44,632 bases of DNA from the IMG/VR virus record IMGVR_UViG_3300045988_026856, positions 1 to 44,632 of that record. One strand, 5' to 3'. The notes under the pieces are model-generated. The model ran no database searches. It was not told where the DNA came from and saw only the letters and a program-made list of their open reading frames with translations. This document shows, piece after piece, positions 275 through 42,486 of this stretch; position 1 is the stretch's first letter; every line of letters starts with the position of its first letter. The stretch is from a virus. Taxonomy: Duplodnaviria > Heunggongvirae > Uroviricota > Caudoviricetes. The position numbers and the translations under genes are program-made.

Positions 275-343
275 TGTATAATCCTTGTGCTTACTTTGAT
301 AATTTGTGCTTTGGCCCCGACGTTCTTGCGTTGGGGTTTCTTT

Positions 344-634
344 TTACCGTTTAGCCAACCCTTCCAGCAAATTTTTATACTCTTCAAAATATTCCTCGAC
401 CAAATCATCGCCGAAATAGAAGTCGATATACTCGAGATTATCTCTTACGTTAAGCGATGCCGACATTGTGCTTAGTTGGCGTAAGCTAATTAGCTTCATT
501 TCTGTTTCTACGCAGAAAGGCCGGTAGGTATCAAGGTGGCAGGAGATGTTGAAGCATAAAGCGAACTCTCCGACCACGGAGTAGACCATATACACTTCGT
601 TTTCTGCCTTATTGTGGAAAATTACACCTTTCAT
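344..634 (-). CDS. hypothetical protein (96 aa)
   Basis: ORF track; AAGGAG RBS; start overlaps stop of upstream gene (ATGA). Confidence 0.55.
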   Translation of the reverse strand: MKGVIFHNKAENEVYMVYSVVGEFALCFNISCHLDTYRPFCVETEMKLISLRQLSTMSASLNVRDNLEYIDFYFGDDLVEEYFEEYKNLLEGLAKR

Positions 635-813
635 TTCACGTTCTCCTTAATCCATGCTTCAACTTTATTACGGTCAAATGTTCCTGGTAAACGGCGACCC
701 ATAACTTTAATACAGCAGTCAGGGAATTTGCCGCTGCGTAACCAGTTATTAATTGTCTGACGTGTCACCCCGATACGCTCGGCTACCTCATTCTGTGTCA
801 TGTAATGTTGCAT
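631..813 (-). CDS. AlpA/excisionase-like (MerR-type) HTH DNA-binding protein, 60 aa
   Basis: Start refined to internal Met (MQHYMTQNEVAERIGVTRQTINNWLRSGKFP...) with AGGAGA RBS; HTH_17/AlpA-like signature. Confidence 0.65.
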   Translation of the reverse strand: MQHYMTQNEVAERIGVTRQTINNWLRSGKFPDCCIKVMGRRLPGTFDRNKVEAWIKENVK

Positions 814-844
814 TTTTATATCTCCTGTTTGTTTAGTGAAACCG

Positions 845-873
845 AGTATAGGATAGCGGGAATGTAAAAGCAA
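845..873 (-). promoter_or_regulatory. sigma70-like promoter (TTGCTT-N17-TATACT) for the leftward operon
   Basis: -35/-10 hexamers on minus strand with 17-nt spacer, about 30 nt upstream of the AlpA-like gene. Confidence 0.35.
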
Positions 874-910
874 CCAATCCCTGCAATATTTAATCTTTAC
901 AAAAAAGTTA

Positions 911-940
911 TTGAAAGTTCTTGACATGTGTTTGTATAAT
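911..940 (+). promoter_or_regulatory. sigma70-like promoter (TTGAAA-N18-TATAAT)
   Basis: Near-consensus hexamers; about 350 bp upstream of the first early ORF. Confidence 0.45.
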
Positions 941-967
941 GGTTTTGGGACTTGTATATATTACGGA

Positions 968-999
968 GTTGACGAACCCTCCCCGAGGGATTCGTCAAC
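968..999 (+). promoter_or_regulatory. long imperfect inverted repeat (GTTGACGAACCCTC...GAGGGATTCGTCAAC) just downstream of the 911..940 promoter
   Basis: About 14-bp stem with one bulge, read directly from sequence. Confidence 0.4.
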
Positions 1000-1139
1000 C
1001 CCTCCCAGACAGCTGAGATGCTTGCCCAACGGTTTAAGGATAAGTGTATCTAAATCTCATTTAAAGAAGTAACCAGCTGAAATATCTACTGTTTCTTAAT
1101 GTGCCGTAGATTCGCAACCGTAAAAATGTAACGATTATC

Positions 1140-1168
1140 GGGCGGGCCTTAAGGCCTGCCCTTTAGTT
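1140..1168 (+). terminator. putative intrinsic terminator (GGGCGGGCC-TTAA-GGCCTGCCC + TTTAGTT)
   Basis: 9-bp GC-rich stem (one G-U) followed by a U-rich tract, plus strand only. Confidence 0.45.
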
Positions 1169-1233
1169 ACCAAGTAATAAGAATAAAGGCACAACCCTAC
1201 CTGAAGAATCACAACGGCAACGTAACTATTCTC

Positions 1234-1262
1234 TTGCGCACCCCAACATAATAGGTTACTAT
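1234..1262 (+). promoter_or_regulatory. early promoter TTGCGC-N17-TACTAT with AATAG-N4-CTATT inverted repeat over the -10
   Basis: Near-identical copy at 21655..21683 (minus) and related copy at 2714..2742. Confidence 0.45.
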
Positions 1263-1296
1263 TCACTTATCGGAACGAAACAGAGGAGTGAGGGTT

Positions 1297-21613: not shown

Positions 21614-21654
21614 GGGGTAGCTCCTGTTTGAGTTAACATTGTTGGTGTAAGTGA

Positions 21655-21683
21655 ATAGTATCCTATTATGTTGGGGTGTGCAA
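21655..21683 (-). promoter_or_regulatory. promoter TTGCAC-N17-TACTAT driving the minus-strand insert; near-identical to 1234..1262
   Basis: About 35-bp element shared with the early promoter at 1234..1262. Confidence 0.45.
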
Positions 21684-35887: not shown

Positions 35888-36175
35888 TTAACTATAATAG
35901 CTCGCTATTAGGTCGTCAACCTGTTTAAACGAACCAACGACAAAAACATTTGCACCACGTTTGCTCATCCGCTCGTGCTCTCGTAGCTGATGCGGGTCTG
36001 GCTTCGTGTTTTCGTCTTTCTTAACCTCGACAAACCAGACTATGCCGCCTGGGAGAATTACCAGCAGGTCAGGAGCGCCCGCTCTATTTTCGTAGGAAAG
36101 TTTACGAACGAGGCCGCCAATGGCCTCGAATTGCTCTTTTGCGTATTTCTGCACACGCCCCTCAGGCGTACTCAT
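35888..36175 (-). CDS. VRR-NUC domain nuclease
   Basis: GAPDLLVILPGGIVWFVEVKK...Q motif. Confidence 0.7.
   Translation of the reverse strand: MSTPEGRVQKYAKEQFEAIGGLVRKLSYENRAGAPDLLVILPGGIVWFVEVKKDENTKPDPHQLREHERMSKRGANVFVVGSFKQVDDLIASYYS
35891..35919 (-). promoter_or_regulatory. promoter TTGACG-N17-TATAGT with AATAG-N4-CTATT in spacer
   Basis: Same family as 39845..39873 and 42178..42206. Confidence 0.45.
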
Positions 36176-39844: not shown

Positions 39845-39873
39845 ACTATAATAGCTAACTATTCAGGTGTCAA
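39845..39873 (-). promoter_or_regulatory. promoter TTGACA-N17-TATAGT with AATAG-N4-CTATT
   Basis: Consensus -35, 17-nt spacer. Confidence 0.45.
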
Positions 39874-42177: not shown

Positions 42178-42206
42178 ACTATAATAGTGAACTATTCACA
42201 TGTCAA
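42178..42206 (-). promoter_or_regulatory. promoter TTGACA-N17-TATAGT with AATAGTTCACTATT palindrome
   Basis: Consensus -35, 17-nt spacer. Confidence 0.5.
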
Positions 42207-42221: not shown

Positions 42222-42250
42222 TAATTAATATGGTACTATTCACATATCAA
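42222..42250 (-). promoter_or_regulatory. second tandem copy (TTGATA-N17-TAATTA); promoter or operator
   Basis: 16-bp direct repeat of ACTATTCACAT(G/A)TCAA 44 bp from the first copy. Confidence 0.3.
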
Positions 42251-42270: not shown

Positions 42271-42486
42271 ATGCAACCATCTGAATTAGGCATCCGTGTA
42301 GAACAACGCCGTAAAGAACTCGGCATCTCCCAGCGCCGTCTGGCGGTGCTGACCGGGGTTTCCCAGGGCGCAATTAACCAGCTGGCACTTGGGGTAACCC
42401 AGGACGTCCGCCCGGCAACGCTGTTTAAACTGGCGGAAGTGCTGGAGGTAGACGCCAAGTGGCTGGCGCTAGGTGAAGGGGCTTAA
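42271..42486 (+). CDS. XRE-family (Cro/CI-type) HTH regulator
   Basis: LGISQRRLAVLTGVSQGAINQL HTH; AGGAG RBS. Confidence 0.7.
   Translation: MQPSELGIRVEQRRKELGISQRRLAVLTGVSQGAINQLALGVTQDVRPATLFKLAEVLEVDAKWLALGEGA

What the first reader, a model, noticed from the sequence alone, without database searches (positions are those of the whole stretch)
911..1168. Promoter-hairpin-terminator unit with no ORF: candidate small RNA or attenuated leader
A near-consensus promoter (TTGAAA-N18-TATAAT, 911..940) is followed by a long imperfect hairpin (968..999), about 140 nt with no credible ORF, and an intrinsic terminator (1140..1168). The next promoter (1234..1262) and first early gene follow. This predicts a roughly 220-nt noncoding transcript in the divergent control region between the two early operons, or a leader needing antitermination.
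Basis: seen in the sequence. Interest (0 to 1): 0.5.

Follow-up and report, generated by a model that had tools for sequence, protein, structure and literature searches.

The report
Non-coding structured leader of phage early operon
Between the two divergent early operons of this Kagunavirus (a virulent E. coli phage), a strong host-type promoter most likely drives a roughly 220-nt folded RNA that encodes no protein and ends at a terminator-like hairpin; related phages keep the same layout while swapping the sequence modules, but its function is untested.

Summary
The window is a Kagunavirus genome (Guernseyvirinae).

- **Promoter P1:** TTGAAA-N18-TATAAT at 911-940 is one of only three matches of at least 11/12 to the sigma-70 consensus in 44.6 kb.
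- **Hairpins:** 968-999 and 1140-1161 are the two most stable local folds on the + strand.
- **Coding:** no conserved ORF lies between them.
- **Next promoter:** P2 (1234-1262) and the first rightward gene (1297) follow.

Comparison with about 90 related loci changes the picture. The region is a mosaic of five interchangeable 5' modules and three 3' modules. Every 5' type has a rightward promoter at the same place. Types B-E have a long hairpin that keeps its shape through compensatory and G·U changes; the window's type A hairpin is invariant. This points to a + strand RNA.

Only the window's 3' module (T1) looks like a good intrinsic terminator; T3 does not and T2 is doubtful. T1 is also conserved well beyond its hairpin, at 88-90% identity to Salmonella phages against 70-82% for most aligned flanking segments.

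- **Best reading:** a structured, untranslated early leader with a lineage-specific attenuator, which yields a 215-222-nt RNA.
- **Not excluded:** a trans-acting sRNA, or a transcription-primed replication origin.
- **No evidence for:** N/nut-type or Q-type antitermination.

No transcript has been demonstrated. Interest is moderate.

The parts
845..873 (-). Leftward promoter PL of the HTH regulator gene (631-813, minus strand): -35 TTGCTT (873-868), 17-nt spacer, -10 TATACT (850-845). It lies back-to-back with P1.
   Evidence: Read directly from the sequence. The equivalent TTGATT-N17-TATACT is present in SE2- and TPH05A-type relatives. It scores 8/12 by my count, below the 9/12 threshold of the scan.
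911..940 (+). Promoter P1: TTGAAA-N18-TATAAT. The predicted start is near G947.
   Evidence: 11/12. (one of three sites of at least 11/12 in the genome; 0.37 expected); a promoter at the same relative position in all five leader types. Invariant hexamers in six A-type phages.
965..1001 (+). 5' hairpin of the leader (core 968-999, 14 bp plus a 2-bp extension), starting at about +19 to +22.
   Evidence: It is invariant in A-type relatives, so it shows no covariation itself. Position-equivalent hairpins in types B, C, D and E covary.
1002..1098 (+). Linker without an ORF, 62-70% A+T between 1040 and 1119. It carries short TATCT motifs that recur in the other leader types.
1077..1209 (+). T1 module: a non-coding block shared with Salmonella Jerseyviruses and some other Kagunaviruses.
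   Evidence: 388 phage records. (88-90% identity against 70-82% for most aligned flanking segments). (the flanks of the hairpin are invariant in 19 distinct sequences).
1140..1168 (+). Terminator-like element: stem-loop 1140-1161 plus tail TTTAGTT. GTAAC (1128-1132) and GTTAC (1166-1170) can extend the stem.
   Evidence: C-G to U-A in 3 sequences, and the window's own A-to-G change keeps a G·U pair. A terminator was predicted at this place in the fBC-Eco01 record.
1210..1227 (+). Junction block CACAACGGCAACGTAACT, common to all leader types. It is complementary to 1099-1107, so a long-range helix enclosing T1 is possible.
   Evidence: One search shows only wobble-preserving one-sided changes, which is weak support. 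The block is absent upstream of the two other P2-type promoters.
1234..1262 (+). Promoter P2 (TTGCGC-N17-TACTAT), overlapping the palindrome AATAGGTTACTATT (1250-1263).
   Evidence: three rightward copies and three leftward promoters carry the palindrome. Called a 'phage promoter' motif in PMC9825357.
1297..1476 (+). First rightward early gene (59 aa, PHROG 12538, unknown function).

Best explanation
P1 is an early promoter for host sigma-70 RNA polymerase and has no copy of the palindromic operator. It transcribes a structured RNA that encodes no protein and forms the leader of the early-right operon.

The RNA begins with a long stable hairpin. I infer that this hairpin protects the 5' end or acts as a processing or pause site. 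In this phage the RNA then runs into the T1 stem-loop with its UUUAGUU tail. I predict that most polymerases stop there and release a 215-222-nt RNA bracketed by two hairpins. The remainder read through the conserved junction into the operator-bearing promoter P2 and the early genes.

The unit therefore works as an attenuated leader, or insulator, placed in tandem with P2.

**Shown here**
- The sequence features.
- Their conservation of position across all five module types.
- Covariation and + strand G·U bias in the hairpins of the other module types.
- The absence of coding potential.

**Inferred**
- That transcription occurs.
- The efficiency of termination at T1.
- The role of the hairpin.
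For: - **Promoter quality and rarity:**
- **Promoter conserved in position** in types A-E despite unrelated sequence.
- **Leader length:** 238-306 nt to the junction block in all types.
- **Coding potential:** no conserved ORF in the window or the T1 block, and the ORFs annotated in relatives are inconsistent. Types B-E were not scanned for ORFs.
- **Structure kept while sequence changes:**
  - Types B and C: 16 distinct sequences fold into the same three-tier hairpin. Pair types are AU/GU/GC and GC/UA/AU, and the inner stem is replaced wholesale.
  - Type D: 22 consensus pairs, 4 of them with changes on both sides.
  - Type E: the outer stem reads GGTAC/GTACT in one variant and GGTGAC/GTCAC in the other.
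- **Strand:** wobble pairs are G·U on the + strand. I count 29 such cells against 2 C·A cells in type D. This fits an RNA made from P1 rather than a duplex-DNA site.
- **T1 as a terminator:** its metrics equal those of the other terminator-like sites in this genome, and one stem pair shows a compensatory change.
- **Local stability:** the two hairpins are the two most stable local folds on the + strand.
- **P2:** it carries an operator-like palindrome that P1 lacks.
- **Expression timing:** the adjacent HTH gene is early in the RNA-seq study of a phage with the same leader.
Against: - No transcript, start site or 3' end has been observed.
- The U-tract is short and interrupted (UUUAGUU).
- GTAAC/GTTAC pairing could sequester the U-tract.
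- T3, and probably T2, lack a terminator, so attenuation cannot be the general function of the unit.
- The T1 flanks are invariant on both sides of the hairpin. Neither a simple terminator nor a mere spacer explains this.
- The window's own type A hairpin shows no variation, so its structural role rests on analogy.
- It is unclear why a leader is needed at all when P2 sits just upstream of the genes.
Confidence: 0.5

Rival explanations
1. Stand-alone trans-acting small RNA. The P1-to-T1 transcript of about 220 nt is the functional product. It acts on host or phage RNAs or proteins through the invariant single-stranded T1 sequences.
For: - A promoter-to-terminator unit without an ORF.
- The sequence just upstream of the T1 hairpin is invariant across Salmonella and E. 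coli phages, as expected for a seed or a protein-binding site.
- T1 is more conserved than most neighbouring genes.
- General knowledge, not tested here: the short lambda 6S RNA is made from pR' and stops at tR'. Its Stx-phage counterpart, StxS, is reported to act as an sRNA.
Against: - Relatives with T3 or T2 modules lack a clear 3' end.
- The invariant sequence continues past the terminator, where a terminated RNA would not contain it.
- A three-U tail is poor for Hfq-type sRNAs (general knowledge).
- The only candidate target I tested, the translation-start region of the HTH mRNA, is no better than shuffles: -17.0 against -15.9 ± 2.7 kcal/mol. It is also not conserved in type D phages that have the same target sequence.
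- No Rfam family matches.
Confidence: 0.2
2. Transcription-activated or transcription-primed replication origin. A strong promoter fires into an A+T-rich stretch beside the replication genes, as at the primary origin of T7.
For: - A fully annotated relative encodes a T7-like set of replication proteins: Gp2.5-like SSB, DNA polymerase, exonuclease and helicase-primase.
- The unit has a strong promoter and no ORF.
- The stretch 1040-1119 is 62-70% A+T.
- The cumulative GC skew has its minimum at this locus.
- The conservation of the T1 block would fit a protein-binding DNA site.
Against: - The GC-skew switch coincides with the switch in gene orientation, so it is not independent evidence.
- I found no iterons. 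The clustering of GTAAC is weak, and the motif is over-represented genome-wide.
- Covariation with + strand G·U pairs points to RNA structure rather than duplex-DNA sites.
- Modules are swapped freely while the replication-side HTH protein stays identical.
Confidence: 0.12
3. Leader that needs dedicated antitermination of the N/nut, Q/qut or put-RNA type. The 5' hairpin would load a factor, or itself modify RNA polymerase, so that it reads through T1 and later terminators towards the lysis and structural genes on the same strand.
For: - The whole rightward arm, from early genes through lysis to structural genes, lies on one strand with terminator-like sites along it.
- A promoter-proximal hairpin is present in every type.
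- A -10-like TATATT sits at about +11 to +16 (read from the sequence). This resembles the sigma-dependent pause elements that Q proteins use (general knowledge).
Against: - The leader has no boxA.
- No antiterminator is annotated in Bas70.
- The early small proteins I scanned have no Pfam hit.
- The hairpin type is not coupled to the adjacent HTH protein. An identical protein occurs with A+T1, D+T2 and D+T3 leaders.
- P2 and its copies provide independent promoters downstream of the terminator-like sites.
Confidence: 0.1
4. No dedicated function. The promoter-like and terminator-like sequences are chance features of a recombination-prone spacer.
For: - Shuffled genomes reach similar hairpin energies.
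- The region is highly mosaic.
Against: - A promoter is kept at the same position in all five types.
- Three or four module families show compensatory changes.
- T1 is more conserved than most neighbouring genes.
- The best promoter and the two most stable folds lie within about 260 nt of each other.
Confidence: 0.05

Closest known systems
Lambda pR'-6S RNA-tR' unit, and its Stx-phage counterpart StxS
   Same: A strong constitutive promoter, about 200 nt without an ORF, and an intrinsic terminator, located upstream of genes on the same strand. A short terminated RNA is the default product.
   Different: - No Q gene or qut site was identified.
- A second promoter (P2) lies between the terminator and the genes.
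- The unit sits at the early divergent control region, not ahead of the late genes.
- The terminator is missing in many relatives.
T7/T3 early control region: tandem host-type promoters A1-A3 and a long leader with the RNase III site R0.3
   Same: Tandem promoters for host RNA polymerase ahead of the first early gene of a virulent phage. A long untranslated leader contains an irregular long hairpin. The replisome gene set is T7-like.
   Different: - RNase III cleavage is untested here.
- The window's hairpin is only 14-16 bp.
- A terminator-like element separates the two promoters.
- P2 carries an operator-like palindrome.
Lambdoid nut sites and HK022 put RNAs (promoter-proximal RNA elements that modify RNA polymerase)
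   Same: Stem-loops close to the promoter in the leaders of early operons. The sequence modules differ between related phages.
   Different: - No boxA.
- No partner protein was identified.
- The hairpin type is not coupled to the neighbouring regulator.
- No covariance model for put was available to test.
T7 primary replication origin (promoters phi1.1A and phi1.1B plus an A+T-rich region)
   Same: A promoter without an ORF, followed by an A+T-rich stretch, next to genes for a T7-like replisome.
   Different: - The promoter is for host RNA polymerase.
- The evidence for structure points to RNA.
- There are no origin-mapping data.

Membership tests
Sigma-70 promoter (P1) | -35 and -10 hexamers close to TTGACA and TATAAT, 16-18 bp apart | tested here: met
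   TTGAAA-N18-TATAAT, 11/12. One of three such sites in 44.6 kb against 0.37 expected.
Sigma-70 promoter (P1) | Conserved position in related genomes, in an intergenic region and in the right orientation | tested here: met
   TTGACA-N17-TAAGNT (types B and C), TTGACT-N17-TAAGCT (D) and TTGACA-N16-TAAAAT (E) at the same relative place.
Sigma-70 promoter (P1) | Transcription start observed in vivo or in vitro | not testable with these tools
Intrinsic (Rho-independent) terminator | G+C-rich stem-loop | tested here: met
   9 bp, 8 of them G-C, loop of 4, -18.9 kcal/mol. C-G to U-A compensation in 3 of 19 sequences.
Intrinsic (Rho-independent) terminator | Uninterrupted U-tract directly after the stem | tested here: inconclusive
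   The tail is TTTAGTTACC, with only three consecutive T. Its tail score of -3.91 equals those of the other terminator-like sites in this genome and is in the top 1% of positions. GTAAC/GTTAC pairing may sequester the tract.
Intrinsic (Rho-independent) terminator | The feature is kept in orthologous units | tested here: not met
   The T2 core (tail score -1.88) and T3 (-1.95) have no U-tract. Only an extended 58-nt T2 hairpin has a TTTAAG tail, scoring -3.53.
Known RNA families (Rfam 15) | Match to a covariance model | tested here: not met
   No match within the 947-1168 transcript at E up to 10. The only match inside the control region, ctRNA_p42d at 1205-1237, scores 16.3 bits against a gathering score of 50. 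No tRNA or tmRNA.
Lambda-type N/nut antitermination site | boxA (CGCTCTTA) upstream of a short boxB hairpin, plus an N-like protein | tested here: not met
   No boxA with up to one mismatch between 947 and 1296. No N-like protein is annotated or detected.
Q/qut late-gene antitermination unit | A Q-family protein and a promoter-proximal sigma-dependent pause | tested here: inconclusive
   No Q is annotated in Bas70, but not every ORF was scanned against Pfam. A -10-like TATATT lies at about +11 to +16 (read from the sequence); pausing is untested.
Hfq-dependent sRNA | Terminator followed by a long U tail, and a conserved single-stranded seed | tested here: inconclusive
   The U tail has only three U. 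An invariant single-stranded stretch lies upstream of the hairpin. No target was identified.
Transcription-primed origin (T7 type) | A promoter plus an adjacent A+T-rich unwinding region, with replication initiating there | tested here: inconclusive
   A promoter and a stretch of 62-70% A+T are present. The GC-skew minimum is confounded with gene orientation. Initiation cannot be tested here.

The most novel reading that the evidence does not exclude
Guernseyvirinae may carry a cassette system of early non-coding RNAs. At least five 5' hairpin modules and three 3' modules recombine freely while keeping their shape. The RNA would act in trans, for example as a decoy or sensor in phage-host conflict (RNases or defence systems). 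Alternatively it could act as the primer or opener of a T7-like origin. In either case it would be more than a passive leader.
Probability: 0.15. Interest if true: 0.7.

Novelty: new member of a known kind. Interest (0 to 1): 0.4.

Why it matters
Guernseyvirinae (Kagunavirus, Jerseyvirus) are common phages that are often proposed for therapy. The exact HTH protein encoded next to this unit occurs in 1177 blocks of the public assembly collection. Their early regulation is essentially unstudied.

The analysis has three practical consequences:
- It defines a conserved, non-coding, structured early transcription unit.
- It shows that gene callers place spurious ORFs on that unit in several deposited genomes.
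- It gives a concrete, cheap test, because a published RNA-seq time course exists for a phage with the same leader.

If the RNA proved to act in trans or to prime replication, it would be a new handle on host takeover or replication in this group.

Tried and rejected
1. **Antisense pairing of the leader with the HTH mRNA start region.** The direct repeat 818-833 / 1082-1097 matches at 14 of 16 positions. However, the duplex energy is within the range of shuffles, and the match is absent from type D phages that share the same target. Rejected.
2. **Iterons or operator repeats based on GTAAC/GTTAC.** Five copies lie between 1069 and 1259. The motif is over-represented genome-wide (147 against 87 expected), and another region ties for density. 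Not pursued.
3. **Genome end or pac site.** Two Jerseyvirus records start inside the T1 block. PhageTerm found no termini in fBC-Eco01, and the headful-packaging salmophage isolates analysed in that study had random, circularly permuted ends. The record starts are arbitrary.
4. **Specific pairing between hairpin type and the HTH regulator.** Rejected. Contigs that encode the identical 60-aa protein carry A+T1, D+T2 or D+T3 leaders.
5. **Hidden small ORFs.** Candidate ORFs of 10-11 codons on the + strand lack ribosome-binding sites and change frame between homologues. The annotated minus-strand ORFs are inconsistent between records.
6. **Host or plasmid origin of the sequence.** No match in complete E. 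coli genomes. The single plasmid hit is a 44-kb record whose size suggests a mis-filed Kagunavirus genome.
7. **Long-range helix 1099-1107 / 1214-1223 enclosing T1.** It appears in several minimum-energy folds. Only one-sided, wobble-preserving changes support it, and some T3 sequences break it. Kept as a hypothesis only.
8. **An alternative anti-terminator pairing conserved across leader types.** I found none on inspection.

Full report
**Identity of the window**

The window is a complete or near-complete genome of a Kagunavirus (subfamily Guernseyvirinae). It is 94-96% identical over this region to E. coli phages such as Bas70, 590B, fBC-Eco01 and K1B4.

The finding lies in the 483-bp gap between two genes. 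On the minus strand is a 60-aa HTH_17-type regulator gene (631-813). It heads the replication-gene arm. On the + strand is the first small rightward early gene (ATG at 1297).

**Observation check**

- P1 is TTGAAA-N18-TATAAT at 911-940, 11/12 to consensus.
- A 14-bp hairpin with one bulge lies at 968-999.
- About 140 nt follow with no credible ORF.
- A 9-bp G+C-rich stem-loop lies at 1140-1161, followed by TTTAGTT.
- TTGCGC-N17-TACTAT lies at 1234-1262.

Is this more than chance? Only three sites in the 44.6-kb genome reach 11/12 to the sigma-70 consensus, against 0.37 expected, and all three are intergenic. The two hairpins rank first and joint second of 11,148 40-nt windows on the + strand. 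Shuffled genomes produce equally stable hairpins somewhere, so energy alone is not significant. What is improbable is that the best promoter and the two most stable folds share one ORF-free interval of about 260 nt.

The tail score of the terminator candidate (-3.91) equals those of the two other terminator-like sites nearby. A promoter and a terminator had already been predicted at these positions in the GenBank record of fBC-Eco01 (PMC9825357). No interpretation was attached to them.

**What relatives show**

I used the 18-mer CACAACGGCAACGTAACT (1210-1227) as an anchor, plus a second T1-specific pattern. Together with database records this gave about 90 related loci. The region is strikingly mosaic.

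Downstream of the promoter there are five unrelated 5' modules:
- **A:** the window's type.
- **B:** SE2-like.
- **C:** TPH05A-like.
- **D:** Golestan-like.
- **E:** K1H-like.

There are three unrelated 3' modules:
- **T1:** the window's type.
- **T2:** GGGGTGGGC-loop-GCCCACCC.
- **T3:** (CTCA)n followed by GGTGCCTTCGGCACC.

The observed combinations are A+T1, B+T1, C+T1, C+T2, D+T2, D+T3, E+T2 and E+T3. The two ends therefore recombine independently. All combinations rejoin at the same junction block and at P2.

Three things are constant:

1. *A rightward sigma-70-type promoter at the same relative position.* The leader is 238-306 nt from the predicted start to the junction block.
2. *No evidence of coding.* No credible ORF lies in the window's leader, and the short ORFs across the T1 block change frame between homologues. 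Types B-E were not scanned for ORFs.
3. *A long stable hairpin in the first part of the leader.*
   - Types B and C: 16 distinct sequences fold into the same three-tier hairpin. One pair is A-U, G·U or G-C. Another is G-C, U-A or A-U. The inner stem is replaced wholesale: GCTTAACCC/GGGTTAAGC, GTTTAACCC/GGGTTAAAC, CCGCTT/AAGCGG or CCGCC/GGCGG.
   - Type D: 22 consensus pairs, four of them with changes on both sides.
   - Type E: both the outer and the inner stems covary.

The wobble pairs are G·U on the + strand. I count 29 G·U cells against 2 C·A cells in type D. This is the signature of a structure in the + sense RNA, not of a duplex-DNA site or a minus-strand transcript.

The window's type A hairpin is invariant among its roughly 95%-identical relatives. 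Its structural role therefore rests on positional analogy.

**The 3' module**

T1 looks like a real, if imperfect, intrinsic terminator. In the alignment of 19 distinct T1 sequences, counted, one stem pair has changed from C-G to U-A in three sequences. The window's own A-to-G change keeps a G·U pair.

Two observations argue that 'terminator' is not the whole story.

First, T3 has no U-tract. The T2 core has none either, and only an extended 58-nt T2 hairpin is followed by TTTAAG. In many close relatives, P1 transcripts should therefore run on into P2 and the early genes.

Second, the sequences flanking the T1 hairpin on both sides (about 1101-1139 and 1162-1194) are invariant across E. coli and Salmonella phages. 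Variation is confined to the loop and to a spacer at 1195-1209. The block is 88-90% identical to Jerseyviruses. Most aligned flanking segments are 70-82% identical, for example the HTH gene at 76.6% and the helicase-primase gene at about 70%; a few short segments reach 85-97%. This extra conservation is unexplained.

The junction block is complementary to 1099-1107 and could close a long-range helix around T1. Support is limited to wobble-preserving one-sided changes.

**P2 and the wider circuit**

P2 is weak by consensus, 7/12 by my count. It is one of three near-identical rightward elements of the form cTTGCACACcccaacATAATAGGnTACTATTCA, at 1234, 2714 and 21683 (minus strand).

The embedded palindrome AATAG-N4-CTATT also sits in the spacer of three strong leftward promoters, TTGAC(A/G)-N17-TATAGT (two with TTGACA, one with TTGACG), near 35900, 39850 and 42190. 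A 71-aa XRE-type HTH gene (42271-42486) is flanked by two of these sites.

P1 and the HTH-gene promoter PL (873-845) lack the palindrome. P1 is therefore probably outside that regulatory circuit.

**Mechanism**

The most economical reading is a structured, untranslated early leader transcribed by host RNA polymerase from P1. In T1-bearing phages such as this one, it also carries an attenuator that should release a 215-222-nt RNA bounded by two hairpins.

The transcription itself, the efficiency of termination and the role of the 5' hairpin are all inferences. For the hairpin I consider 5'-end protection, RNase III processing as in the early leader of T7, or pausing.

I put 0.5 on this reading. 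The rivals are:
- **A trans-acting sRNA (0.2).** It would explain the invariant sequence upstream of the hairpin but not the sequence downstream of it. The one target I tested failed.
- **A transcription-primed origin next to the T7-like replisome genes (0.12).** The GC-skew minimum is confounded with gene orientation, and the covariation points to RNA.
- **A leader needing dedicated antitermination (0.1).** There is no boxA and no identifiable factor, and the hairpin type is uncoupled from the neighbouring regulator.
- **No function (0.05).**

**Comparison with known systems**

No Rfam family, tRNA or tmRNA matches. There is no homologue in E. coli chromosomes or in genuine plasmids.

In function, the unit resembles the lambda pR'-6S-tR' unit and the T7 early leader. 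It does not meet the defining features of nut sites, and the evidence for a Q/qut unit is inconclusive.

Literature searches found only sequence-based promoter and terminator predictions and a gene-level RNA-seq study. I found no description of this leader.

**Verdict**

The finding is a real, conserved, non-coding early transcription unit, and an uncharacterised member of a familiar kind. The modular, shape-preserving variation and the over-conserved T1 block make it moderately interesting. A published RNA-seq data set for phage K1B4, which carries the same leader, could settle the central prediction quickly.

Noticed in passing
window 1250-1263, 2730-2743, 21654-21667, 35896-35909, 39850-39863, 42183-42196 (a degenerate copy at 42225-42242): The palindrome AATAG-N4-CTATT is embedded in six or seven promoter-like sites (0.02 expected by chance). 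Three are rightward TTGCAC-N17-TACTAT elements with about 35 nt of near-identity. Three are strong leftward TTGAC(A/G)-N17-TATAGT promoters. It is probably the operator of a phage regulator. The fBC-Eco01 paper listed the motif as a 'phage RNA polymerase promoter', but no RNA polymerase gene is annotated in the related phage Bas70.
   Followed up: partly
window 42271-42486 (+): A 71-aa XRE/Cro-type HTH gene (Pfam HTH_31, HTH_19, HTH_3 in identical homologues) lies alone on the + strand inside the leftward replication arm. Palindrome sites flank it on its upstream side. It is a candidate for the protein that binds the palindrome, and may regulate itself.
   Followed up: no
window 845-873 (-): The leftward promoter of the HTH gene (TTGCTT-N17-TATACT) lies back-to-back with P1. 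The two -35 elements are 37 bp apart. The equivalent TTGATT-N17-TATACT is present in the SE2- and TPH05A-type relatives read.
   Followed up: partly
window 897-998 (-) and 1135-1266 (-); L002 1798-1899 and 2049-2165; L057 507-659; L058 317-418 and 506-685: Deposited relatives (Bas70, 590B, ORH_001) annotate minus-strand 'hypothetical proteins' across the promoter, hairpin and terminator. Their lengths differ between records, and homologues carry frame-breaking indels. They look like gene-caller artefacts.
   Followed up: yes
L013, L019, L020, L023, L029, L033, L037 (T3 modules): A CTCA microsatellite lies just upstream of the T3 hairpin. Its copy number varies, from 3 copies in most loci to 6 in L013.
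   Followed up: no
window 818-833 and 1082-1097: A 16-nt direct repeat (14/16) would let the leader RNA pair with the Shine-Dalgarno region of the HTH mRNA. It is not better than shuffles and is not conserved in type D phages that have the same target.
   Followed up: yes
window 932-940 and 952-962: TTGTATA of the P1 -10 region is repeated 20 bp downstream. This gives a -10-like TATATT at about +11 to +16, a possible sigma-70-dependent promoter-proximal pause element.
   Followed up: no
window 313-338: A terminator-like hairpin with a good T-tract on the + strand lies between the 96-aa and 42-aa leftward genes. It is annotated on both strands in fBC-Eco01.
   Followed up: no
NC_073202.1 (celemicas) position 1; MT074481.1 (sidste) position 1: Two Jerseyvirus records begin inside the T1 block, equivalent to window positions of about 1116-1121. 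PhageTerm results for a related Kagunavirus and for headful-packaging salmophage isolates show no fixed termini, so these starts are arbitrary.
   Followed up: yes
CP088689.1 (PLSDB 'plasmid', 44,086 bp, E. coli from blood): This is the only plasmid-collection hit to the region (32 nt, 96.9%).
   Followed up: no
window 631-813 (-): The exact 60-aa HTH protein occurs in 1177 blocks of the public assembly collection, so this phage group is very common in sequenced samples.
   Followed up: partly
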